This document shows, piece by piece, positions 13,307 through 63,975 of a stretch of 64,000 bases of DNA. The notes under the pieces are model-generated. The model saw only the letters and a list, made by a program, of their open reading frames with translations. It had not been told where the DNA came from and did not search any database. The stretch spans positions 12,256 to 76,255 of the forward strand of contig CAZVHB010000003.1 in the NCBI GenBank assembly GCA_964626965.1, given 5' to 3'. The position numbers and the translations under genes are program-made. This stretch comes from an uncultured Candidatus Saccharibacteria bacterium. GTDB taxonomy: Bacteria > Patescibacteriota > Minisyncoccia > Phycocordibacterales > UBA9973. Position 1 is the stretch's first letter. Each line of letters begins with the position of its first letter.

Positions 13307-15337
13307 TTACTTTAGTTTAAAATCAGGAATATCTTTCTGTGCCTGAGCTAAAGCTTCAGTATACAGTTTCTGATCTCCAATAATCTCTGCAAATTGAACC
13401 AGAAGTCGATGCGAAGACGCAAAGGTCGGATCAATGGCAATACCCTCCTTATAAGCATTTTCTGCTGATTTTAAGTCCCCTTTCCAGACATAGATCTGTG
13501 CCATACTCCAGTGCACATTTGGATTTGTTGGTGATAATTTTTTTGCTTTATTGAGTACCATTAGAACGTGATCAAACATCTCAGGATTTGCACTCATCTC
13601 ATTCAGATATAATAATGTTCCGTATAAATGTGCAATAGTAATTGATAAACGATAATCAGTTGGGTTACGAACAGAGACTTCTTCAAGATAATTAATCAAA
13701 CCAGTTAAATCCTCAACAACATACGGGAGGAGTTTTGTGTCGTTTTTGAATTGTGCTGGATTAGCTGAGTATTTTTTATACAGATCATCAGCAAGCCCTC
13801 CAACATCCCAAGCTTCACCAACAGAAGAACCAGAAAGAAGATCTTTGTACGCTTCTGCTCTTTTATTAATCGGCATAACAAATATCTCTGCATACGCTCC
13901 TGATTTAGATACAGGCATCTTTACAAAAAAGATAAGACAAGCAACACAGGCAAGACCGAGAAAACCGACAAGAAATACATCGTACTCTGAATCCGTGTAC
14001 CTCTTTTTCAGTGGAACTGTTTGACCATCATCACCATACAAGCTGTACAGTATTCCTGTAATCATAAAAAGTGCTGTAAGAGATAGGTTTGAATCAAATG
14101 TCATTAAGTTATTTACAATATAGGCGACAAGAAGTCCTACAAAAATAGAAACTTGAATCTTTGTGAGTACACCTTTTTTGTGTAAATGCAACAATACATA
14201 AAACAAACTACCCAAAAAGAGAGCATATAAAATAATGAGCGGATATCCACCAGACACACCAAGATCATAATATTGATTGTGAGCACGATCCGCCCAACCT
14301 TCATAGCTATTCTCTACTCGGAGGATTTTTGGATTGAAATTCTCTTGAAATGCAATTTGATAATTTTCTGGACCGTACCCAAGAACAGGATTTTTATCTA
14401 TTGCTTTTTGTGCAACATCCCAAAAAATAAATCGACTTCCTCGAGCTTGTTCTGCAAATTTGTTATGTAAGGTTGTATTTGGAGTAACTAATTGTACCCA
14501 TAAAAACCCAGAAACGAGTACTGCTATGGTCGCAATACCAACACTCAATCCCCTGATACTTTTCTTGGAAGAAAGAAACATATAACCAACGACGCTTGCT
14601 CCAATACCACTGATAATTGCTAGTATTGTTCCTCGAGCAGTACCAAGAATACTTCCATCAGAAAAAAGGCGGTACAGACTCGCAAAAACTGGCGAGAATA
14701 TAATAATGGCCATAGTACTGTAAATAAATAATTTTTTAGTTTTACTTATATTTTTACTACAGAGAAGAAACAAAGATACAGCCAGCGTAAACAAAAAATA
14801 ACCGGCAGCAAGTGTTGAGTTACCCGCAAACCCTCCCCCAGCATCTGTTTTTAACACAGTAAAAGGTAAATGAAAGCCATCAACACCCATCCATACACTG
14901 AGAGCCAAGAGAGAAGACCCGGCAATAAAATACTGAAACAACGAAGTAACATACGTCATTCCAGATTTCTTAACAAGCGAGGCAGTAACGAGAGCAAAAG
15001 CAAAGACATGATAAAAAGTCAAAAGCCCTGTGCCCCGCCCAAGAGAAGACCAGAAAGCGAGATTGGGATTTACTGCATAGATTGTTGCAAGTGTCATCCA
15101 GGTTAAAACTACAGAAGGTATTGCAAACATAAGAAGTGTTTTCTTTGAAAGACGATACTGTCGATCCTTAAAAGCAACATAGAGCCATAAGAAAAAGAGA
15201 ATTTCAACCACCCCATACATAAAAAATGTTTTTGATGAGATATGCGGAAATAGCCCACGACTCCAAAAAATGACCGGCATCAAAAGCACTAAAGTAAAAG
15301 AGAGGTATTCAAGCATGTTTTCTTTGAATGTATTCAT
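13307..15337 (-). CDS. O-antigen ligase/Wzy_C-family polytopic membrane protein with C-terminal TPR repeats (paralogue of 11222-13264)
   Basis: Same architecture as its neighbour ('ARGTILAIISGIGASVVGY', C-terminal TPR: 'AENAYKEGIAIDP'). Confidence 0.6.
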   Translation of the reverse strand: MNTFKENMLEYLSFTLVLLMPVIFWSRGLFPHISSKTFFMYGVVEILFFLWLYVAFKDRQYRLSKKTLLMFAIPSVVLTWMTLATIYAVNPNLAFWSSLGRGTGLLTFYHVFAFALVTASLVKKSGMTYVTSLFQYFIAGSSLLALSVWMGVDGFHLPFTVLKTDAGGGFAGNSTLAAGYFLFTLAVSLFLLCSKNISKTKKLFIYSTMAIIIFSPVFASLYRLFSDGSILGTARGTILAIISGIGASVVGYMFLSSKKSIRGLSVGIATIAVLVSGFLWVQLVTPNTTLHNKFAEQARGSRFIFWDVAQKAIDKNPVLGYGPENYQIAFQENFNPKILRVENSYEGWADRAHNQYYDLGVSGGYPLIILYALFLGSLFYVLLHLHKKGVLTKIQVSIFVGLLVAYIVNNLMTFDSNLSLTALFMITGILYSLYGDDGQTVPLKKRYTDSEYDVFLVGFLGLACVACLIFFVKMPVSKSGAYAEIFVMPINKRAEAYKDLLSGSSVGEAWDVGGLADDLYKKYSANPAQFKNDTKLLPYVVEDLTGLINYLEEVSVRNPTDYRLSITIAHLYGTLLYLNEMSANPEMFDHVLMVLNKAKKLSPTNPNVHWSMAQIYVWKGDLKSAENAYKEGIAIDPTFASSHRLLVQFAEIIGDQKLYTEALAQAQKDIPDFKLK

Positions 15338-15358
15338 ACGCCGATTATATCAAAAAAT

Positions 15359-15489
15359 CCCCACACCTACCAAACCATTATTTCAATATGTTTTAACTAC
15401 TCATAAAAGGTAACCATTGGTACATACATTTATGTCTCTACACAATGTGTATTTGAAATCAAAAACACGATGGTTTGGTAGGTGTGGGG
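15359..15489 (+). repeat. ~131-bp element bounded by perfect 20-bp terminal inverted repeats (copy 1 of 2; MITE-like or structured ncRNA)
   Basis: CCCCACACCTACCAAACCAT at 15359-15378 and its exact reverse complement at 15470-15489. The second copy at 30991-31128 has conserved internal ends and a compensatory change. Confidence 0.55.
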
Positions 15490-15495
15490 AAAAAC

Positions 15496-15527
15496 AAAAA
15501 ACCACCCAAATAGGGTGGTTTTTTGTT
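15496..15527. terminator. bidirectional rho-independent terminator
   Basis: ACCACCC-AAATA-GGGTGGT hairpin flanked by an A-run and a T-run. Confidence 0.7.
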
Positions 15528-15569: not shown

Positions 15570-17561
15570 TTAGTTGTTGATGTATTGGAAAGCAGTTCGG
15601 TAGTTAGTTACAGGAAGTAGATCACTGTTTGTAGCAGTGTTGAGTGCAGCTTCTGTAAATGTTCGAATTGTATCCAATCGGAAACGAATTGAAGTATTAT
15701 CAGTTGCTGCTGTCATTGTTACGTTAACAGTGAAGTTCTTTGTAACACCATCATCAAGACGGAAACCGTTTGATTCAACAGTTGCGTCTGAAGTTGAGAG
15801 TGTGATTGAAGTTGTAGCAGATACACTTTCTGTATTTGGAAGTGCTGCAGTTTCTACAACAAGAGCAAATGCGTTTGAAGCAGTAGCTGCTGTTGCGAGT
15901 TGTGCAGATTGTCCAATGTACAATGTATTACCAAATGCAGTAACTGCAACTGGAATAGTGTATGTACGTGAAGTAATGTTACCGTTTTGGTCTTCTGTAC
16001 TAGCGTAAGTAGGAGTTCCCATTACAGTATTAACACCAGTTGAACGGAATGTCATTGTTTCACCCATAGCTGAACCTGTTCGGTCACCAGTTACGAGTTG
16101 ATCACCATTCATATCTTCTATATCAAAGTAGTTAGTTGTAGTAGCTGCAACCAATGCTGAAGTGATTTCAGCTTTCAAAGTTGTACCTTCTGTGAAGTTT
16201 ACATCAATGTCACTGATATCAGCGTAGATAACACCTTCTACTGTAGCATCTTTTTCTACAGAAAGATTGAGGTCATCGAAATTTTTAGTAGCACTAGAAG
16301 CTACGTTAGTTATTGTTTCATTGTATGTATTACCAGCAATCTTAAGAGTTACATTTGAAGTAACTTCATTAAGAGTATGTGATGTAGTAAATGTAACAGG
16401 AACTTGATCAAGCAACATGTTTGAACCTTGAGCTTTCAAAGTGAATCTCAAAAGTTCAACTTGGTTTGTATCAGATGTTGTAGAAACTTTAACAGTCTTT
16501 GCAGTCATGTTTGAAGTTGCAAGATTAACTTTCATTTCTACATCACTTGCTGTTGCGAGTGAAGCGAATTGGAAAGTCTTACTGATTAAACCAGTTGAGT
16601 CTGTCAAGATAGCACCTGTTCCATCACTGAAACGTGTACTTTCAAGAGTAGTTGTCCAAGTGTTTGAAGCGAGGTCTGTAGAATCAATATTTGCAGCTGC
16701 GTCAACTGATACGTAGAAAGTTTCTTTCTTATCAGCTTTTATAACAGCATTTGAAAGTGAAATTGATTTTGAGTAAACACCTGATGATTCTGAAAATGCA
16801 GAAACGTCAGCTGAACCAACTTTCGTTGAACCCATCCAAACTGAAACCTTAGTTGCGTAACGGTTAAGCTTGTCTGAGCCAGAACCTGTAGTCATTTCAA
16901 GGTTAAGTTTAACTGAGTTGATAGCGAGGTCAGAACCATTATCAGCTTCTACAGTGTATGCAAAAACTTTGTGGTCGACATCACCTTCTCCAACTTTTTC
17001 GTTTGAAATAGAAGAAAGAACTTCTACTAGTTGGATATCACCAGCACCACCAGTAACTACTGTTGTTCCAGCAGTACATGAAGCACCTGTAGTTGAACTA
17101 AAGAGTGCACCTGCTGTACATCCAGCTACTGTTGAAGTAGCAGTTGCACAAGATTGACCAGTTGTTGTACTGAATCCTGTTGTTGAAGTACATCCAGTTG
17201 GAAGAGTTCCACCTGTTGATACTGTTCCACAAACGTTACCGATTGTAGAAGCTGAGTTACGTGACATGTTACCGAAGTAACCTGTTGAAGGAACACCAGC
17301 TTTAGTTTGATACTTCATAACAGCTGCTTTTGTAGCCATTCCAAAGTATGTTGATTCGAAACCTTTTGAACCATTTGAACCTGTAGTCACATCAAGTGCT
17401 GTATCAGGACAAGCGTTCAAAAACATTTGTAGCCCTCGTACATTTTCACCAGTTGATCCAACCATCATGTTGGTAGTGAAAGTAGCTGTTGAAGCGTTTG
17501 CTGTAAGAGCAAAAGCAGCAACAAACATTGATGCGAGAGTTAATTTAAAAATTTTACTCAT
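15570..17561 (-). CDS. secreted surface protein: signal peptide, peptidoglycan-binding (PG_binding_1-like) domain, Ser/Thr/Cys-rich linker, large beta-rich C-terminal region
   Basis: N-terminal 'MSKIFKLTLASMFVAAFALTANA'; 'VRGLQMFLNACPDTALDVTTGSNGSKGFESTYFGMATKAAVMKYQ' resembles the PG-binding domain; the linker is 'TGGTLPTGCTSTTGFSTTTGQSC...'. Confidence 0.55.
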   Translation of the reverse strand: MSKIFKLTLASMFVAAFALTANASTATFTTNMMVGSTGENVRGLQMFLNACPDTALDVTTGSNGSKGFESTYFGMATKAAVMKYQTKAGVPSTGYFGNMSRNSASTIGNVCGTVSTGGTLPTGCTSTTGFSTTTGQSCATATSTVAGCTAGALFSSTTGASCTAGTTVVTGGAGDIQLVEVLSSISNEKVGEGDVDHKVFAYTVEADNGSDLAINSVKLNLEMTTGSGSDKLNRYATKVSVWMGSTKVGSADVSAFSESSGVYSKSISLSNAVIKADKKETFYVSVDAAANIDSTDLASNTWTTTLESTRFSDGTGAILTDSTGLISKTFQFASLATASDVEMKVNLATSNMTAKTVKVSTTSDTNQVELLRFTLKAQGSNMLLDQVPVTFTTSHTLNEVTSNVTLKIAGNTYNETITNVASSATKNFDDLNLSVEKDATVEGVIYADISDIDVNFTEGTTLKAEITSALVAATTTNYFDIEDMNGDQLVTGDRTGSAMGETMTFRSTGVNTVMGTPTYASTEDQNGNITSRTYTIPVAVTAFGNTLYIGQSAQLATAATASNAFALVVETAALPNTESVSATTSITLSTSDATVESNGFRLDDGVTKNFTVNVTMTAATDNTSIRFRLDTIRTFTEAALNTATNSDLLPVTNYRTAFQYINN

Positions 17562-18058
17562 ATTTTATAAAACGCACTTATAATTGCTTTCGACTTTTGT
17601 GCAATTTTGGTGTGCGTGCGTGTGATAAATCACACTCATCCAATGAAGCTTTTTTAAAAACATAATTATTCTTAAAAATGAATCTATGAATGTTTGGTAG
17701 AATTCTCTACCTTGTCGACAAGGTCCGATCTGGGTCACCCCATATCGAATCTATGTGCGATGCGAACATGTTATTTTCGACATGAAAAACATATCAGAAG
17801 AACATACGATACTCGGTATCAATATAGTATGCCTATTTTGTTTTTAATGATCGAACGTCAGATGTTGTGCACCTCACGCGTAATGTACCTATGCTAAACC
17901 TTGCGGTCGCATAAATAAACTACTTGTATATAATCTCATATAACACGTTAAAATGCAACAGAGATTACATATACTCTGACGGGACAGATTGGGAAATATT
18001 ACAGTGAGGATATAGGTTTTAGGTGGTAGGTTGTAGGGTAGATTTTAGTGCTCATCAA

Positions 18059-18103
18059 GACACAGCGAGGGTGGACCTTTGTCCAACCTCGCTGTGTCTT
18101 TTT
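18059..18103 (+). terminator. rho-independent terminator (plus strand)
   Basis: 12-bp stem GACACAGCGAGG/CCTCGCTGTGTC followed by TTTTT. Confidence 0.65.
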
Positions 18104-19042: not shown

Positions 19043-19478
19043 GAATGTCTTTTAGGTTAATAAAAATGTCCTATAGATCTTCTCTGGTATATCGCATGGA
19101 TATTTCTTCAAAGAGATATTCTCTGAGAACTGACCTTTAAAAAAATACGTGCCAAGCTACTCTTTTGATTCGCCCATTATACATGTCCTTTAGAATTTGT
19201 CCAATAGAAATAGAGACTCAGCTAGACACAACAATCTCACCTCTACCTCCGTAGTCTGTGAATGAGAGAAGAACAGGCACAAGTCTTTTGGTTCTTCCCA
19301 TAGGCTCGAACTGAAATGAGTTTGGAAGTTATCCACAGTTCGTGGATATGCTATAATAAGCAAACGCTGAATCAGTCTCAATTTTCCCGAACGAAAACAA
19401 TATGTCGACAATTAATTAAAAAGTAACACATTTACTACAGAAGAAACATACACTCATTCTGTAATAAAATTTTGGCGG

Positions 19479-21674
19479 ATGAATCAAAAAAAATTAAAAA
19501 AAAATGAAGATGAAGCACCAATTCCAAAAATTATCCAGCAAGGACTAGAACATAGTATGAACCCTGAAACAAGAAGAATTGTGAGTATGCTCGTTTTTTT
19601 CCTCGTCGGAATTATTTCACTCCTTGGAGTATTTAATGCAGGTGGTATTGTCGGTGAAGCACTCAAAAATGCTTTCAAATATGTCTTTGGTTTTTTGTAT
19701 TTTATTATTCCTTTCTTTTTCCTGTATTTTGGAATGAGGCTCATAAAGAGAAAAACATTACTTCCTGGTGCACGTATTTTTTGGGGTGGTGCACTTTTTG
19801 TCATCACACTACTTGGACTTGAAACACTCTCCATATTTACACGACAAGGAGGATTAATTGGAGAAGTTACTGTGTCACTCTTTTCAAAACTATTTGGAGT
19901 CATTGGGGCAATAACCACACTAGCAATCGGGCTCATTATTTCATTTATGATTCTTTTAAACACTCGCCCTGATTTCACACTCTTGTTAGAAAAATTAAAA
20001 TCATTCTTTACAAAACTACTCAAAGGAGGACTCTCTTTTGGAAAAAGTTCTATTCACCAGCTCTCACTACCAAAAGAAGATGACTATAGTGACGAAGGTC
20101 TCGAGATACATGAATCAATAGAAACACCGACACAAATGAATGATGTAAAAACAAAAAAAATTGTCGCTCATTCAGACACAGAAGAAGAAGACGTACCCGC
20201 CCCGAAAGCAAAAAAAAGAGACAGTGGAACATATGTCTTCCCTCCTACAGCACTCCTCTCTCGAGATCAAGGTAAGCCAAATACGGGTGACATCAAAGCA
20301 AATGCAAATATCATAAAACGAACACTGCAAAATTTTGGAATAGAAGTAGAGATGGATGAGATCACCGTCGGACCGACTGTCACCCGCTACGCTCTCAAAC
20401 CAGCAGAAGGAGTGAAACTCTCTCGTATTGTTGCACTTCAGAGTGACTTAGCACTCGCGCTCGCTGCCCACCCTATTCGTATTGAAGCACCAATTCCTGG
20501 TAAATCACTCGTTGGTATTGAAATACCGAACAAAGCAAAATCAATTATTGGGTTCTCAAACCTTATGGAAGATCCACTCTTCAAGAACGATCCGAAGCCA
20601 CTCTTGGTTGCGCTTGGGAAAAATATCTCAGGTAAAGCTCGTTTTGCAAACTTAGCGAAGATGCCACATGCACTCATTGCTGGAGCAACTGGTTCAGGAA
20701 AATCTGTCACGGTACATGCGATTATTACATCGCTCCTCTATCGAAATAGTTCAGATGATCTGAAGTTTATCTTTGTTGATCCGAAGCGTGTTGAACTCAC
20801 GATGTACAATGGACTTCCTCACCTCCTCACCCCTGTCATTACTGACCCAAAGAAAACCATTATGGCACTCAAATGGGCAGCAAAAGAAATGGAGAAGCGT
20901 TATGATATTCTTGAAAAAAGTAAAGTCCGAGATATTGCTTCATACCATGAAAATATCTACAACAAACGTAAAAATGACGAAATAGACAGAATGCCGTACA
21001 TTGTGATTATTATCGACGAATTAGCTGATATTATGTCTGCCTACCCACGAGAACTCGAGAGTGGTATCGTCCGCCTTGCACAAATGTCTCGAGCAGTTGG
21101 TATTCACCTGATCCTCTCAACTCAACGCCCAAGTGTAAATGTCATTACCGGACTCATCAAAGCAAACGTTCCTGCTCGTGTTGCACTCCAAGTTGCGAGT
21201 CAAATAGATTCACGAACTATTATCGATCAACCAGGTGCAGAAAAGCTTTTGGGAGCTGGAGATATGCTCTATTCTTCAGGTGAAATGTCTAGTCCTGAAC
21301 GTATCCAATGTGCCTATATTACAGAAAATGAGGTGAAAAACATTGTTTCCTTTATTAAGGATAATAATGATATACTAAGTGAAGATATCAATCTTTCTCC
21401 AGGTGCACTTGGAAATACAGATGGAGTATTTTCTGCAAATGTTGATGGAAATGATGACGATGATTTATATGAAGATGCTCGAGCGACCGTAATGGAAACA
21501 GGTAAAGCATCAACATCATTCCTCCAAAGGAAGCTTGGTGTTGGATACGCACGTGCTGCACGATTGATCGATATGATGGAAGAACGTGGAGTGGTTGGAC
21601 CAGGTAATGGTTCAAAACCACGAGAAGTGTTGCAAAAAAGTGTAGCTGAAGAAAAAGAAGAATTCGAAAACTAG
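19479..21674 (+). CDS. ftsK: DNA translocase FtsK/SpoIIIE
   Basis: N-terminal TM helices, 'GATGSGKSV' Walker A, 'IVIIIDELADIM', C-terminal gamma-like winged helix. Confidence 0.9.
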   Translation: MNQKKLKKNEDEAPIPKIIQQGLEHSMNPETRRIVSMLVFFLVGIISLLGVFNAGGIVGEALKNAFKYVFGFLYFIIPFFFLYFGMRLIKRKTLLPGARIFWGGALFVITLLGLETLSIFTRQGGLIGEVTVSLFSKLFGVIGAITTLAIGLIISFMILLNTRPDFTLLLEKLKSFFTKLLKGGLSFGKSSIHQLSLPKEDDYSDEGLEIHESIETPTQMNDVKTKKIVAHSDTEEEDVPAPKAKKRDSGTYVFPPTALLSRDQGKPNTGDIKANANIIKRTLQNFGIEVEMDEITVGPTVTRYALKPAEGVKLSRIVALQSDLALALAAHPIRIEAPIPGKSLVGIEIPNKAKSIIGFSNLMEDPLFKNDPKPLLVALGKNISGKARFANLAKMPHALIAGATGSGKSVTVHAIITSLLYRNSSDDLKFIFVDPKRVELTMYNGLPHLLTPVITDPKKTIMALKWAAKEMEKRYDILEKSKVRDIASYHENIYNKRKNDEIDRMPYIVIIIDELADIMSAYPRELESGIVRLAQMSRAVGIHLILSTQRPSVNVITGLIKANVPARVALQVASQIDSRTIIDQPGAEKLLGAGDMLYSSGEMSSPERIQCAYITENEVKNIVSFIKDNNDILSEDINLSPGALGNTDGVFSANVDGNDDDDLYEDARATVMETGKASTSFLQRKLGVGYARAARLIDMMEERGVVGPGNGSKPREVLQKSVAEEKEEFEN

Positions 21675-30198: not shown

Positions 30199-30885
30199 TT
30201 ATTTGTTTGACATTTCTCTTGAAACTTTATCCAAAAGACGTGAAGCATGTTCCTTTCCACCGAGTCCAAGTGCAAGACCTCCACCGAGTGCGAGCATCAA
30301 GACGAGTCCAGTGAATAGTGTACCAAAGAGTTCACGTCCAATACCGAGTTGAGAAAGAGCAACCATAAATGCAAATATCCAGATAGAATATTTTGCAACA
30401 GTTGCGAACATCATTGAGTGACGTCCAGCATCTACTGATTTTGCTCCGACAGTAACGATACCAGAAACAAAGTTAGATACATACGCTGCTGCGATAAGAA
30501 CGATACTTGCAACGGCTACTTTTGGAAGAAAGCCAGTGATAAGTGTTACAAGAATAGCATTTAAATCACTGAGACCAATGATATTAAGTGTTACAACGAG
30601 TCCAACAATAATCACAAACCATCTAACAATCCATCCTAGAAATGAAGATGCAGAAAAACTTACACCTGCCTTTCTTGAAAGATCATCAAGACCAACACTG
30701 TCGAGTAGACGATCAAGCTTAATAGTAACGAAAAGCTCTTTTACAGCTCTTCCTAAGAGTGACCCAAGTACCCATGCGAGTACAAAAACGAGAAGCGCGA
30801 CTATCAGATTTGGCACAAAATTTGCAAATCCGAGCCATACGTTTTGAAGAGATGAGGTGAATACCTCTGCCCAGCTTTGATTCAT
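30199..30885 (-). CDS. membrane protein with conserved TM-helix repeats (MscS-N-terminal-like TM_helix family)
   Basis: Repeated 'P.LI.AL.V..L' helices; 228 aa. Confidence 0.4.
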   Translation of the reverse strand: MNQSWAEVFTSSLQNVWLGFANFVPNLIVALLVFVLAWVLGSLLGRAVKELFVTIKLDRLLDSVGLDDLSRKAGVSFSASSFLGWIVRWFVIIVGLVVTLNIIGLSDLNAILVTLITGFLPKVAVASIVLIAAAYVSNFVSGIVTVGAKSVDAGRHSMMFATVAKYSIWIFAFMVALSQLGIGRELFGTLFTGLVLMLALGGGLALGLGGKEHASRLLDKVSREMSNK

Positions 30886-30990
30886 ATTATATTATATTAA
30901 TTATTAATTTGAAACTTTATGCCGACGCACAAAGGTCTCTAGACTAAGTATATCAATTTTAAGAAAAGAAGTAACTAATCTGTGGAAAAC

Positions 30991-31128
30991 CCCCACACCT
31001 ATCCTGCCATTATTCCAAAGTGTTTTAGTTCAATAAGGAGAAAAAAGAGATGCGCGATGCAGACAAGTGATCTATTTCAAAAATGTACTGTTGGAATACA
31101 AAAACACAATGGCAGGATAGGTGTCGGG
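30991..31128 (+). repeat. ~138-bp inverted-repeat-bounded element (copy 2 of 2)
   Basis: CCCCACACCTATCCTGCCAT at 30991-31010, reverse complement at 31109-31128 (one mismatch); inner TATTCCAA/TTGGAATA shows a compensatory change versus copy 1. Confidence 0.55.
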
Positions 31129-31196
31129 AGAAAAGTCCAGTACTAGTTTTTAGTGCGGAGTTTTTAGTTTATAGAGAAAACAGAGCACAAACATAC

Positions 31197-31240
31197 AACA
31201 GCAGGGCGACCAAAGGTCGCCCTGCTGTTGTGTTTTCTAT
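31197..31240. terminator. bidirectional terminator
   Basis: CAGCAGGGCGACC-AAA-GGTCGCCCTGCTG + TTGTGTTTT. Confidence 0.7.
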
Positions 31241-31269
31241 ACCCTGCAACCTACCACCTATTCCCTAAC

Positions 31270-32965: not shown

Positions 32966-33029
32966 ATGTTGATTAAGAATAAAAGACTTAATAAGTCATT
33001 TTATTTCTTAATTGTAAAATAAAAAAATC

Positions 33030-33140
33030 GACCTAATAAAAGCCGAAATTCTTATACACGTAGTGTCATTAGATATTTCTACCTCGGCTGGATTTACGGA
33101 AAGAATGTAGTCCTCTCCACCGGCTGTCTTCGGCTTATAC
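33030..33140 (-). promoter_or_regulatory. candidate ribosomal protein L10 leader (attenuator-type) upstream of rplJ, with sigma70-like promoter at 33145-33173
   Basis: Minus strand: TTGTAT-N17-TATATA promoter, then a ~95-nt stem-loop closed by AAGCCGAA/TTCGGCTT, followed by a U-rich tract before the rplJ AUG. Confidence 0.4.
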
Positions 33141-33370
33141 TCTATATATACCACACATTATTAAAAAATACAATTAATTAACGCGATCCAAGATCTCCCC
33201 AATCACCGCAGGAAGTTCTATCGTCTTTCCCCCTTTTATTTTACAATTCATCTCAGATAGATCACATCCATACCCTATATACAAGCTCACGAGTCCCAAG
33301 AACCCAAGACAGCAAAGCGCAAACAATGTACGTACTAAATGTGTCGTCATATACCTCTAGTATATCACAC

Positions 33371-47269: not shown

Positions 47270-47361
47270 AAATCAAACAGACGCAAAGGGCTATCGAAAG
47301 ATGGCTTTTTTTATTACCATCTCCACAATTATAAAAACCTCTTACGAGGTTTTTATAATTG

Positions 47362-47750
47362 TGGAGATGGCGGGTTTCGAGCCCGCGTCTAGAAAAGCTC
47401 GCACTATAGGTCTACGTGTGTAGAGTATTTTTTGATTTAACTGTCTATATTCTAAAATAATCAAAATACATAGAGAGCGAGACGAGATTATTTTAAGTAG
47501 TCAGACTCATCACCTCTGACTACCGAGTGAAAGTGTATAAGACCCAATCTCTTCCCTTTCAACCTAAAAGAGGTGAGTCAACGCTCGGCTTATATACTAA
47601 GCAAGAGCGAAAGCAAAGTTCATCTCACTTGCGTAAGGTGACTCTACTGAACCATTTGCGTTTGCATTTGGGTTTTGCATACAGATTACGAGTACATGCT
47701 TCTCGACACGCGTATAGTGTTTGCCAATCTGGCGAAACAAATACATCCCC
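47362..47750 (-). ncRNA. ssrA: transfer-messenger RNA (tmRNA, ssrA), ~389 nt, with candidate tag reading frame at 47597-47632
   Basis: Minus-strand 3' end AGACGCGGGCUCGAAACCCGCCAUCUCCA aligns with the E. coli tmRNA 3' end GGACGCGGGUUCAACUCCCGCCAGCUCCA(CCA). The 5' end GGGGAUG pairs with CAUCUCC, giving a 7-bp acceptor stem with a G3-U wobble. Internal reading frame GCA AGU GAG AUG AAC UUU GCU UUC GCU CUU GCU UAG (A-S-E-M-N-F-A-F-A-L-A-stop) resembles ANDENYALAA tags. smpB lies 560 bp away. Confidence 0.65.
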
Positions 47751-60293: not shown

Positions 60294-60644
60294 CTAATGT
60301 ATCTTCGCTCCCGGTTTAACTTCTTGATCAGGTACGAGAAAAACCGGTTGACCATCTAGTCCATCGACTGCCATAAGCATACCGTGGGATTCAAGACCCA
60401 TCATAGGACGTGGTTCGAGATTGGTACAAAAGAGCATTGTTTTACCGATGAGTTTTTCTGGCTCTGTGTACCACTTTTTTATTCCTGAAAGAATCTGTCG
60501 TGGCACTGGATTACCTTCTGCATCAACTTCACCAAAATCGAGCTCAAAACGAATAAGTTTATCACTCCCCTCTACAGCTTCTGCCTTTAGTACTTTTCCA
60601 AGTCGTGCTTCTATTTTTGCAAAATCATCTATCGTTATATTCAT
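60294..60644 (-). CDS. tRNA-binding protein (CsaA/YgjH, EMAP/MetRS-C-terminal-like OB fold)
   Basis: 'DFAKIEARLGKVLKAEAVEGSDKLIRFELDFGE...RQILSGIKKWY'. Confidence 0.7.
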   Translation of the reverse strand: MNITIDDFAKIEARLGKVLKAEAVEGSDKLIRFELDFGEVDAEGNPVPRQILSGIKKWYTEPEKLIGKTMLFCTNLEPRPMMGLESHGMLMAVDGLDGQPVFLVPDQEVKPGAKIH

Positions 60645-60832
60645 CCGCCAAAATTTTATTACAACAGTACTACTGAAAATACGGGACTGTATTGTAACAA
60701 CATGTTATCTACTAATATCGACTTCGCGCCTTAAAAAATTTAGGCGGACTAATAGGTACATGATACATAAAAAACCATAATAAATACAGTGACAAAGCCT
60801 ACGGCTTCGTCACTGTATTTATTATTCCTTTC

Positions 60833-63844: not shown

Positions 63845-63888
63845 AGTCTATTGGATGTTTCGTTGTATTTGAGCATTTAGTTTCAAAG

Positions 63889-63975
63889 CGGAGGAGGGGG
63901 GATTCGAACTCCCGGACCCCGTAAAGGGTCTCTTGTTTTCAAGACAAGTGCCTTCAACCACTCAGCCACTCCTCC
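63889..63975 (-). tRNA. tRNA-Ser (anticodon UGA), type II with long variable arm
   Basis: Reverse complement GGAGGAG-UG-GCUGAGUGGUUGAAGGC-ACUUGU-CUUGAAA-ACAAG-AGACCCUUUACGGGGUCC-GGGAG-UUCGAAU-CCCCC-CUCCUCC-G. The acceptor is a perfect 7 bp, the T-loop is UUCGAAU, the anticodon loop is CU-UGA-AA; CCA is not encoded. Confidence 0.85.

What the first reader, a model, noticed from the sequence alone, without database searches (positions are those of the whole stretch)
15359..15489. Novel ~135-bp element with perfect 20-bp terminal inverted repeats, copy 1 (structured sRNA or MITE), with covariation against copy 2
CCCCACACCTACCAAACCAT ... ATGGTTTGGTAGGTGTGGGG. Inside, the ends are also conserved between the two copies (TATTTCAA...TTTGAAAT-CAAAAACACG in this copy; TATTCCAA...TTGGAATA-CAAAAACACA in copy 2). 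The T-to-C change in the 5' arm is matched by A-to-G in the 3' arm, which is a compensatory change, and a conserved 10-nt bulge CAAAAACAC(G/A) is present. The middle ~60 nt differ. In both copies an intrinsic terminator follows on the plus strand (here at 15496-15527) and a plausible promoter precedes it, consistent with a ~150-170-nt plus-strand sRNA. Both copies sit just upstream (antisense side) of a membrane-protein gene.
Basis: seen in the sequence. Interest (0 to 1): 0.65.

Follow-up and report, generated by a model that had tools for sequence, protein, structure and literature searches.

The report
Small hairpin transposon (MITE) of Patescibacteria
The 131-bp inverted-repeat element is real, but it is a copy of a small mobile DNA element (a MITE) that jumps around the genomes of tiny "candidate phyla radiation" bacteria, even into their 23S rRNA genes, and not a small-RNA gene.

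Summary
Window 15359-15489 has perfect 20-bp terminal inverted repeats, and a second copy lies at 30990-31129. The two copies differ by compensatory changes.

I found about 20 distinct relatives in Ca. Nomurabacteria and other Patescibacteria DNA. They share this plan: C5-ACACCTA-N5-CCAT ... ATGG-N5'-TAGGTGT-G5, 123-140 bp, with no ORF.

Evidence that it is a mobile element:
- **Target-site duplication:** 10 of 19 copies are flanked by exact 4-bp direct repeats (CTTG/CAAG, TTTA, AAAA, TGAA).
- **Empty sites:** An orthologous locus has an empty site for window copy 1, which sits between a conserved terminator and the extended -10 of the Wzy-like gene, with TSD TTTT. Orthologues of the copy 2 locus lack the element. 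Near-identical 23S rRNA genes differ by presence or absence of a copy with TSD TAAA.
- **No sRNA signals:** The "sRNA terminator" belongs to the upstream gene, and no plus-strand promoter is found.

Best reading: a non-autonomous TIR transposon (MITE). Its transposase is unidentified.

Its hairpin is kept by covariation. In the subfamily that lives in rRNA, the evidence points to selection on the RNA, in the manner of 23S intervening sequences. Two crossed, mutually exclusive inner helices both covary and remain unexplained.

It is a new member of a known kind, of moderate interest.

The parts
15358..15490 (.). Copy 1 of the element (TCCCC...GGGGA, 133 bp; the perfect 20-bp TIR core spans 15359-15489).
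   Evidence: CM R1 102 bits. It is absent from the orthologous locus L052.
15359..15378 (+). Left terminal inverted repeat CCCCACACCTACCAAACCAT. It consists of a C-run, the conserved ACACCTA, the variable N5 CCAAA, and the conserved CCAT.
15470..15489 (+). Right terminal inverted repeat ATGGTTTGGTAGGTGTGGGG. On the minus strand its TTGGTA (15373-15368 counterpart in the left arm) acts as a -35-like hexamer; see the promoter part.
15354..15357 (.). Left copy of the 4-bp target-site duplication AAAA (TTTT on the minus strand).
   Evidence: Compared with the empty site of L052, the filled site has four extra T.
15491..15494 (.). Right copy of the 4-bp target-site duplication AAAA.
15380..15386 (+). 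Inner helix a (ATTTCAA). It pairs with a' at 15453-15459 (TTGAAAT).
   Evidence: The complementarity is copy-specific.
15389..15394 (+). T-rich motif b (TGTTTT). It is complementary to the A-rich 'bulge' b' at 15462-15467 (AAAACA). It is crossed with a/a', so the two pairings are mutually exclusive.
15460..15469 (+). The conserved 'bulge' CAAAAACACG. It contains b'.
30990..31129 (.). Copy 2 of the element (CCCCC...CGGGA, 140 bp). It is flanked by GAAAA (30985-30989) and GAAAA (31130-31134).
   Evidence: 96 bits. It is absent from orthologous spacers L055-L058, and sequence conservation resumes exactly at its end.
15496..15527 (.). Bidirectional terminator hairpin of the upstream minus-strand PG_binding_1 gene (15570-17561). 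It is not part of the element.
   Evidence: It is conserved without the element in L052 and L054. A partial Rfam terminator-like hit supports it.
15344..15373 (-). Promoter-like site of the Wzy-like gene: TTGGTA (inside the element's arm), 18 nt, then TGnTATAAT, which ends 6 nt before the ATG at 15337. The extended -10 pre-exists in the empty site. The -35-like hexamer is supplied by the insertion.

Best explanation
The element is one copy of a family of 123-140-bp non-autonomous DNA transposons (MITEs) found in Candidatus Nomurabacteria and related Patescibacteria.

Shown here:
- Each copy is bounded by about 21-bp terminal inverted repeats (C5-ACACCTA-N5-CCAT).
- It carries no ORF.
- It is flanked by a 4-bp duplication of the target. 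Preferred targets are CTTG/CAAG and A/T-rich tetramers.
- Copies sit in terminator-promoter spacers, in a terminator loop, upstream of 16S rRNA, and at three sites inside 23S rRNA genes.
- Related genomes and alleles show the same sites empty.
- Window copy 1 landed between the terminator of the upstream gene and the extended -10 promoter of a Wzy-like gene. Copy 2 landed in the spacer upstream of the conserved promoter region of a small membrane-protein gene.

Inferred:
- A transposase encoded elsewhere recognises the conserved outer repeat blocks. It makes a 4-bp staggered cut, and repair of that cut gives the duplication.
- When transcribed, the element folds into a long hairpin of 21-27 bp.
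- This hairpin lets the element be tolerated in rRNA, probably because it is removed or nicked by RNase III like a 23S intervening sequence. That would explain why complementarity of the arms is preserved by compensatory change.

The two window copies themselves are most likely neutral passengers. Copy 1 may have a small side effect on the neighbouring promoter.
For: - **Family and anatomy:** There are 2 copies in the window. One is in a Ca. Nomurabacteria MAG, found with a pattern from the 3' half only. About 25 are in 20 metagenome loci.
- **Target-site duplication:** 10 of 19 distinct copies have exact 4-bp direct repeats immediately outside C5/G5, and 3 more match 3 of 4. Shuffled pairings give a mean of 1.9 and a maximum of 8 in 5000.
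- **Empty site in 23S:** L003 reads AAGAGTTAAAAACACGG. L014 and L020 read AAGAGTAAA[el]TAAAAAACACGG. Their flanks are 98% identical.
- **Empty site for copy 1:** L052 reads ...GGTGGTTTTTTGTTTTTTGGTATAAT...ATG. The window reads ...GGTGGTTTTTTGTTTT[el]TTTTTTGATATAAT...ATG.
- **Copy 2 orthologues:** L055-L058, whose neighbouring protein is 79-96% identical, lack the element. The CM finds no copy in 75 kb of those loci.
- **Derivatives:** There is a 43-bp deletion derivative with CAAG duplications inside a terminator loop. There is also a decayed copy flanked by TAAA/TAAA.
- **23S locations:**
- **Hairpin conservation:** 96% of cells are paired. Seven pairs show double changes. 0 of 500 shuffles reach this.
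- **Strand-specific wobble pairs:** In the rRNA-borne subfamily the sense strand is 10-23 kcal/mol more stable.
- **Not an sRNA gene:** There is no own promoter or terminator, and no Rfam match.
Against: - No autonomous partner was found. There is no transposase gene bounded by the same repeats, and no solo or widely spaced repeats, in the roughly 245 kb of DNA held at that point; about 100 kb of Xer-context loci fetched later were searched only with the covariance model. The transposase family is therefore unknown.
- Two of the three 23S sites (about E. coli nt 276, and the H63-equivalent) show no recognisable duplication.
- Classical MITE repeats need not be complementary to each other. Here the variable N5 block and two inner helices covary, so something beyond transposase binding constrains the sequence.
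- The conserved blocks ACACCTA and CCAT were required by the metagenome search pattern. Their conservation among those hits is therefore by construction.
- No transcript or RNase III data exist.
Confidence: 0.85

Rival explanations
1. It is an independent plus-strand small-RNA gene of about 150-170 nt with its own promoter and intrinsic terminator, present in two paralogous copies.
For: The fold is very stable on either strand. The two copies differ by compensatory changes. A terminator-like hairpin lies downstream on the plus strand of each copy.
Against: No plus-strand promoter-like site is found. The downstream hairpins are the terminators of the neighbouring minus-strand genes and exist in orthologues without the element. 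Homology between copies stops exactly at C5/G5. Copies occur inside 23S rRNA genes and in both orientations relative to neighbours. TSDs and empty sites are present. No Rfam family matches.
Confidence: 0.03
2. It is a hairpin-dependent mobile element moved as folded single-stranded DNA by a structure-recognising enzyme. Candidates are a REPIN/RAYT-like HUH transposase or a tyrosine recombinase acting as IntI does on attC or XerCD on CTX phage. It would then not be a classical double-strand TIR/DDE MITE.
For: The arms and two inner helices are conserved as structure, not sequence. The crossed a/b arrangement lets both strands form the same bulged hairpin (inference). Compensatory changes in hairpins are typical of REPINs (PMC3116915). 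Two independent copies lie 45-55 nt upstream of a XerC/D-like gene, in L019 and L022.
Against: Variable 4-bp duplications of the target are the signature of staggered double-strand cutting. IS200/IS605, RAYT and tyrosine-recombinase systems do not produce them (established knowledge). The Xer-like gene is a highly conserved housekeeping gene, with about 8000 homologues at E<=1e-60. Four further Xer contexts have no element. No attC core sites (RYYYAAC/GTTRRRY) are present. No RAYT was seen in the DNA held.
Confidence: 0.08
3. It is primarily a host-functional element, such as an RNA processing or stability hairpin, a transcription insulator or extra terminator, or a promoter module. On this view it was recruited upstream of membrane-protein genes and is maintained by selection at its present sites.
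For: Both window copies lie upstream of membrane-protein genes. Copy 1 supplies a -35-like TTGGTA at 18 nt from an extended -10. The hairpin followed by T-rich flank on the minus strand resembles a terminator. Structure is conserved.
Against: Close relatives carry the same genes, promoters and terminators without the element. Contexts across the family are unrelated: MurE-like, RNase Y, RecJ, EF-Tu, Xer and rRNA. The -35-like hexamer derives from the variable N5 block and is absent in other copies. Orientation relative to host genes is mixed, about 11:5.
Confidence: 0.04

Closest known systems
Bacterial MITEs in general (as defined in Delihas 2011, PMC3184786), for example the Correia/NEMIS elements of Neisseria
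   Same: It is smaller than 200 bp and has no transposase gene. It has terminal inverted repeats and flanking direct repeats of the target. It is dispersed in intergenic DNA and folds into a long RNA stem-loop. Insertion next to promoters can create hybrid promoters. (The Correia properties are from my own knowledge.)
   Different: There is no sequence similarity. The duplication is 4 bp, not the TA of Correia. The host is Patescibacteria. The cognate IS is unknown. The variable N5 block inside the repeat covaries. Copies also reside inside rRNA genes.
bcr1 repeats of the Bacillus cereus group (about 155 bp; summarised in PMC3184786)
   Same: It is a non-autonomous mobile repeat with a non-conserved genomic distribution. 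It is flanked by short direct repeats (5 bp in bcr1). It is transcribed, and compensatory base changes maintain a double-stranded RNA structure.
   Different: The sequence, host and duplication length all differ. bcr1 is not reported inside rRNA genes. Transcription of the present element is not shown.
23S rRNA intervening sequences (IVS), and the 'short uncharacterised insertions' in CPR rRNA genes (Tsurumaki et al. 2024, PMC11270868)
   Same: Family members are roughly 135-nt extended hairpins inserted in variable regions of 23S rRNA genes, and they are sporadically distributed. The long perfect helix is the kind of substrate RNase III removes from IVS-containing rRNA (inference).
   Different: The same element also occurs outside rRNA genes with target-site duplications, so it behaves as a transposon. 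The sites mapped here (about E. coli nt 276, 926 and 1710-1750) are not the classical helix 9/25/45 IVS sites (from my own knowledge). Excision from rRNA is untested. The window copies are not in rRNA.
REPINs (REP doublets forming hairpins; Bertels and Rainey 2011, PMC3116915)
   Same: Two highly conserved inverted end blocks are separated by a spacer. The spacer's hairpin potential is kept by compensatory changes. Alternative folds have been proposed. It is a non-autonomous mobile element.
   Different: REPINs are moved by RAYT (HUH) transposases without target-site duplication. Here 4-bp duplications are present, and no RAYT is known for it.

Membership tests
MITE (non-autonomous TIR transposon) | Terminal inverted repeats at both ends | tested here: met
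   The window copy has perfect 20-bp repeats. The family has a roughly 21-bp repeat, with 96% of cells paired.
MITE (non-autonomous TIR transposon) | Flanking target-site duplication that differs between copies | tested here: met
   10 of 19 copies have exact 4-bp direct repeats, against a shuffled mean of 1.9. Copy 1 has AAAA/AAAA and copy 2 has GAAAA/GAAAA. Two of the three rRNA sites lack one.
MITE (non-autonomous TIR transposon) | Presence/absence polymorphism with a precise empty site | tested here: met
   23S site B is filled in L014/L020 and empty in L003. The copy 1 site is empty in L052. The copy 2 spacer lacks the element in L055-L058.
MITE (non-autonomous TIR transposon) | Small size, no transposase ORF, multiple dispersed copies | tested here: met
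   Copies are 123-140 bp, and the interiors differ between copies and are AT-rich. There are 2 copies per 64-kb window and at least 4 on one 331-kb contig.
MITE (non-autonomous TIR transposon) | A cognate autonomous IS with the same terminal repeats encoding the transposase | tested here: inconclusive
   No widely spaced or solo CCCCACACCTA ends occur in the roughly 245 kb held at that point; the Xer-context loci fetched afterwards were searched only with the covariance model. 'CC ends plus 4-5-bp duplication' recalls IS1380, but that is from memory only and is a lead, not a test.
Known RNA families (Rfam 15) | A match at or above a family's gathering score | tested here: not met
   Only tmRNA, tRNA and the L10 leader are found in the window. 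The best sub-threshold hits over the element are plant miRNA-precursor hairpins at about 30 bits against a cut-off of 85-140.
23S rRNA intervening sequence (IVS) | A hairpin insertion within the 23S rRNA gene | tested here: met
   This is met for relatives L003, L009, L012, L014 and L020. It is not met for the two window copies, which are intergenic.
23S rRNA intervening sequence (IVS) | Excision from the rRNA precursor by RNase III without religation (fragmented 23S) | not testable with these tools
   This needs RNA data. The only indirect support is a 27-bp uninterrupted helix with G.U pairs on the rRNA sense strand.
REPIN / RAYT system | Insertion without target duplication, and an associated RAYT gene flanked by REPs | tested here: not met
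   Target duplications are present. No RAYT-like gene is among the neighbours scanned. This was not an exhaustive search.
Integron attC site | R''/R' core sites (RYYYAAC ... GTTRRRY), location at cassette ends, and a dedicated IntI | tested here: not met
   The ends are CCCCCACACCTA / TAGGTGTGGGGG. Contexts are not cassette arrays. The adjacent recombinase in L019/L022 is the conserved housekeeping Xer type, and it is not linked to the element in 4 other contexts.

The most novel reading that the evidence does not exclude
The family is the mobile source of some of the short, ORF-less 'IVS-like' insertions in Patescibacteria 23S rRNA genes. On this reading, master copies live in rRNA genes, where selection on the sense-strand RNA keeps the hairpin. 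That selection appears as G.U-only departures, a 27-bp basal helix, and compensatory change at an orthologous site. From the rRNA genes the element seeds intergenic copies such as the two in the window. The two crossed, mutually exclusive and independently covarying inner helices (a/a' and b/b') would be an adaptation that lets either strand adopt the same bulged-hairpin shape. This would make the element orientation-independent for a structure-reading enzyme, either RNase III or its transposase.
Probability: 0.3. Interest if true: 0.6.

Novelty: new member of a known kind. Interest (0 to 1): 0.42.

Why it matters
- **Annotation:** It removes a false lead. This is not a novel regulatory sRNA, and the apparent promoter and terminator belong to the neighbouring genes.
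- **A new element in reduced genomes:** It documents an apparently undescribed, recently active MITE in Patescibacteria, whose genomes are very small and usually poor in mobile DNA.
- **A testable origin for rRNA insertions:** The same element sits in intergenic spacers and inside 23S rRNA genes. This gives a concrete, testable origin for part of the 'short uncharacterised insertions' reported in CPR rRNA genes (PMC11270868). It also links MITEs with rRNA intervening sequences.
- **Practical use:** The insertion polymorphisms are handy strain markers in metagenomes. The strand-specific covariation offers a natural data set for separating RNA-level from DNA-level constraints on palindromic repeats.

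Tried and rejected
- **Rfam:** The window was searched at gathering thresholds and both copies at permissive thresholds. Only terminator-like and miRNA-hairpin noise appeared.
- **IMG/VR viral contigs:** The scan with CCCCACACCTANNNNNCCAT gave 27 single half-matches without a partner arm. Two with the common N5 lie in coding sequence and are chance matches.
- **PLSDB plasmids:** blastn of the element gave no match.
- **L004 and L010 from the metagenome scan:** L004 is a wholly palindromic contig and L010 is a long unrelated palindrome. Both were excluded.
- **Source contig:** Exact look-ups of the window's own proteins to fetch the source contig found nothing on record.
- **Xer recombinase as mobilising enzyme:** The element abuts a Xer-like gene in L019 and L022. 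However, the gene is a ubiquitous housekeeping orthologue, and four further contexts have no element. The idea was downgraded to coincidence or a local hot spot.
- **Autonomous copy:** No solo or distant ends were found in the DNA held.
- **First TSD test:** The first automated test extended the inverted repeat into the flanks and missed the duplications. It was redone with a fixed C5/G5 boundary.
- **RNAalifold:** On MAFFT alignments it recovers only the basal helix, because the inner helices are out of register. They were tested instead by self-versus-permuted complementarity.
- **H-type pseudoknot:** A pseudoknot formed by a/a' and b/b' was considered and rejected. The linkers are 0-2 nt and the two 5' strands often overlap by 2-4 nt.

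Full report
**1. Observation**

The 20-mer CCCCACACCTACCAAACCAT is found at 15359-15378. Its exact reverse complement is at 15470-15489, with 0 expected by chance. A second copy lies at 30990-31129.

An alignment of the two copies shows identity at the ends and in two inner blocks, and an unrelated middle. The outer stem also differs at four positions, all compensated (CCAAA/TTTGG against TCCTG/CAGGA).

Either strand of either copy folds at about -50 kcal/mol (z about -6.5 to -7). No Rfam family matches.

**2. A family**

A pattern taken only from the 3' half found one locus among GTDB species genomes. It is a Candidatus Nomurabacteria MAG. A third copy sits there, with new compensated stem sequences, 136 nt upstream of a 16S rRNA gene.

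A pattern requiring only ACACCTA-N5-CCAT ... ATGG-N5-TAGGTGT found 22 metagenome loci. Two are palindromic artefacts or unrelated palindromes. The rest hold about 25 elements, of which about 17 are distinct.

The common plan is:
- C5-ACACCTA-N5-CCAT, then 0-2 nt;
- block a (5-8 nt), then T-rich block b;
- about 60 nt of variable AT-rich sequence;
- ATGG-N5'-TAGGTGT-G5.

The C/G runs, the N5 complementarity, and the a and b blocks were not imposed by the search. A covariance model built on 20 copies finds only the two copies in the window. It also finds a 43-bp deletion derivative in L020.

Homologues of the neighbouring Wzy-like protein are named Ca. Nomurabacteria. This places the window in Patescibacteria / Parcubacteria.

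**3. It is an insertion**

*Flanking repeats.* Immediately outside the C5/G5 boundary, 10 of 19 distinct copies carry exact 4-bp direct repeats, and 3 more match at 3 of 4 positions. Random pairing of left and right flanks gives a mean of 1.9 and never more than 8 in 5000 trials. The tetramers differ between copies (CTTG/CAAG, TTTA, AAAA, TGAA). They are therefore target duplications and not part of the element.

*Three kinds of empty site.*
- (a) Two 23S rRNA genes have 98%-identical flanks. L014/L020 read AAGAGTAAA[element]TAAAAAACACGG. L003 reads AAGAGTTAAAAACACGG.
- (b) In L052 the neighbouring protein is 65% identical and gene order is conserved. The spacer there reads GGTGGTTTTTTG-TTTTTT-GGTATAAT-ATATCA-ATG. 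The window's minus strand reads GGTGGTTTTTTG-TTTT[TCCCC...GGGGA]TTTTTT-GATATAAT-CGGCGT-ATG. This is the same terminator and the same extended -10 promoter, with the element and four extra T between them. L054 also has the terminator without the element.
- (c) For copy 2, the orthologous spacers in L055 (96% protein identity), L056/L057 (87%) and L058 (79%) lack the element. A conserved region of about 105 nt upstream of the gene begins exactly where the element ends.

*Other copies.* The model finds no copy in 75 kb of these related loci. The 43-bp derivative is flanked by CAAG on both sides and lies in the loop of the rplL terminator. A decayed copy in L066 is flanked by TAAA/TAAA.

**4. What this does to the sRNA model**

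- The plus-strand 'terminator' at 15496-15527 is the conserved terminator of the upstream minus-strand PG_binding_1 gene.
The promoter scan finds no plus-strand site and finds the minus-strand ones.
- Homology between copies ends at C5/G5.
- Copies lie next to unrelated genes: Mur ligase, RNase Y, RecJ, EF-Tu, Xer and peptidase C39. By my ORF-based reading, the orientation split relative to those genes is about 11:5.
- The membrane-protein neighbours of the window copies are therefore coincidental.
- A side effect is possible for copy 1. Its arm supplies TTGGTA 18 nt upstream of TGnTATAAT. That hexamer comes from the variable N5 block and is not a family feature.

**5. rRNA genes**

Rfam places the copies of L003, L009, L012, L014 and L020 inside 23S rRNA genes. 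L014 also carries a group I intron, typical of CPR.

Alignment with E. coli rrlH puts the sites at about nt 276, about nt 926, and the H63-equivalent hairpin at about 1710-1750. Only the second shows a clear duplication.

The site at about nt 276 is occupied in two divergent organisms, L003 and L009. The flanks are the same, the interiors differ, and the stem carries a compensated change. This looks like long residence.

The literature held here notes many short ORF-less insertions in CPR rRNA genes and suggests they are IVS-like (PMC11270868). I found no paper describing this element or linking such insertions to a TIR/TSD transposon.

**6. Structure and strand**

*Basal helix.* It is 96% paired, with 7 pairs changed on both sides (26 cells). 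No shuffle or slid control comes near.

*Inner complementarities.* Both are copy-specific. For 13 divergent representatives, the summed longest complementary runs are 77 for a/a' (permuted 54 +/- 4) and 85 for b/b' (permuted 67 +/- 4). P < 5e-5 for each.

*Crossed order.* The order is a-b ... a'-b'. The linkers are 0-2 nt, and a and b often overlap. The two pairings therefore cannot coexist. Each extends the basal helix with a bulge of about 8 nt on the opposite side.

One consequence, which is my inference, is that both DNA strands or both possible transcripts can adopt the same bulged-hairpin geometry. Why that would be selected is not known.

*Strand asymmetry.* In the subfamily that includes all the 23S-borne copies except L009's, the strand that is rRNA-sense in those copies is 10-23 kcal/mol more stable than its complement. 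It forms an uninterrupted 27-bp helix. Within the 21-bp terminal stem every departure from Watson-Crick pairing is G.U (five positions), and in the six pairs that extend it most are, with a few non-pairing cells in three copies. On the other strand these would be A.C mismatches.

This is what selection on RNA predicts and what DNA-level constraints do not. The number of independent events is small, however. The window copies show no asymmetry (0.2 and 1.8 kcal/mol).

**7. Mechanism**

*Shown:*
- inverted ends;
- a 4-bp target duplication;
- mobility on the time scale of strain divergence;
- tolerance inside rRNA genes;
- conservation of the hairpin.

*Inferred:*
- mobilisation in trans by a transposase that makes 4-bp staggered cuts, with the enzyme not found;
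- RNase III handling of the hairpin in rRNA, by analogy with IVS;
- rRNA-resident copies acting as sources.

A Xer-type recombinase next to two copies was tested as a candidate. It was set aside because it is the ubiquitous housekeeping orthologue, and it has no element beside it in four further genomes.

**8. Verdict**

It is a MITE, not an sRNA gene.

It is a new member of a known kind. Two features are worth following up: residence in 23S rRNA genes with RNA-level covariation, and the crossed alternative helices.

Noticed in passing
window 18022-18040 (+) and 31240-31258 (-): The 19-nt motif GGTGGTAGGTTGYAGGGTA occurs twice, with 0 expected by chance. Each copy lies between a gene end and a strong terminator hairpin (18050-18090 and 31195-31235). 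It resembles the element's 3' arm (GGTAGGTGT). Its function is unknown.
   Followed up: partly
window 30886-30989 (minus strand, upstream of the gene 30199-30885): A roughly 105-nt upstream region is conserved in orthologues whose protein is 79-96% identical. It includes TTGATATACT (extended -10-like) and GCGTCGGCATAAAGTTTC. It may be a promoter plus a conserved leader.
   Followed up: partly
window 15335-15352 and 30883-30913 (minus strand): Extended -10 or -10 hexamers end only 0-6 nt before the ATG of both membrane-protein genes. The same is seen in orthologue L052. This suggests leaderless or near-leaderless mRNAs.
   Followed up: no
window 19460-19484 and 60639-60663: A perfect 25-nt inverted repeat, TGTAATAAAATTTTGGCGGATGAAT, lies 41 kb apart. 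The flanks are unrelated. It looks like a shared promoter/start region (...GGCGG ATG AAT).
   Followed up: partly
window 47359-47750 (-), 47317-47370, 33012-33151 (-), 63888-63975 (-): tmRNA gene (111 bits) followed by a perfect 25-bp hairpin; ribosomal protein L10 leader upstream of rplJ-rplL; tRNA-Ser(TGA).
   Followed up: no
L014 about 2084-2219 (23S rRNA, H63-equivalent): At the site where L003 carries the element, L014 has an unrelated roughly 130-nt AT-rich hairpin, CCCTAGGCATCAC...GTGATGCCCGGGG, with the same flanks. It may be another hairpin insertion family or a native expansion.
   Followed up: partly
L020 4176-4218: A 43-bp derivative consisting of repeats only (CCCCCACACCTATATTT-loop-AAATATAGGTGTGGGGG). 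It has CAAG duplications and is inserted in the loop of the rplL terminator hairpin.
   Followed up: yes
L019 8012-9150 and L022 2691-3843: The element lies 45-55 nt upstream of a XerC/D-like recombinase gene in two species. The two insertions are independent. This is not seen in four other Xer contexts, so it may be a hot spot in that promoter region.
   Followed up: yes
L056 8289-8894: A 201-aa ORF with a reverse-transcriptase (RVT_1) hit lies between rplL and the 205-aa gene in a close relative of the window organism. It is absent from the window.
   Followed up: no
L001 3625-4203 and L014 2419-2628: A LAGLIDADG-type ORF lies beside the 16S rRNA gene, and a group I intron lies inside the 23S rRNA gene. 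Both are typical CPR rRNA insertions.
   Followed up: no
L004 (whole contig) and L010 60-197: L004 is a 9402-bp contig that is a perfect palindrome about its centre, probably an assembly or amplification artefact. L010 is a long near-perfect palindrome. Both matched the search pattern by chance.
   Followed up: partly
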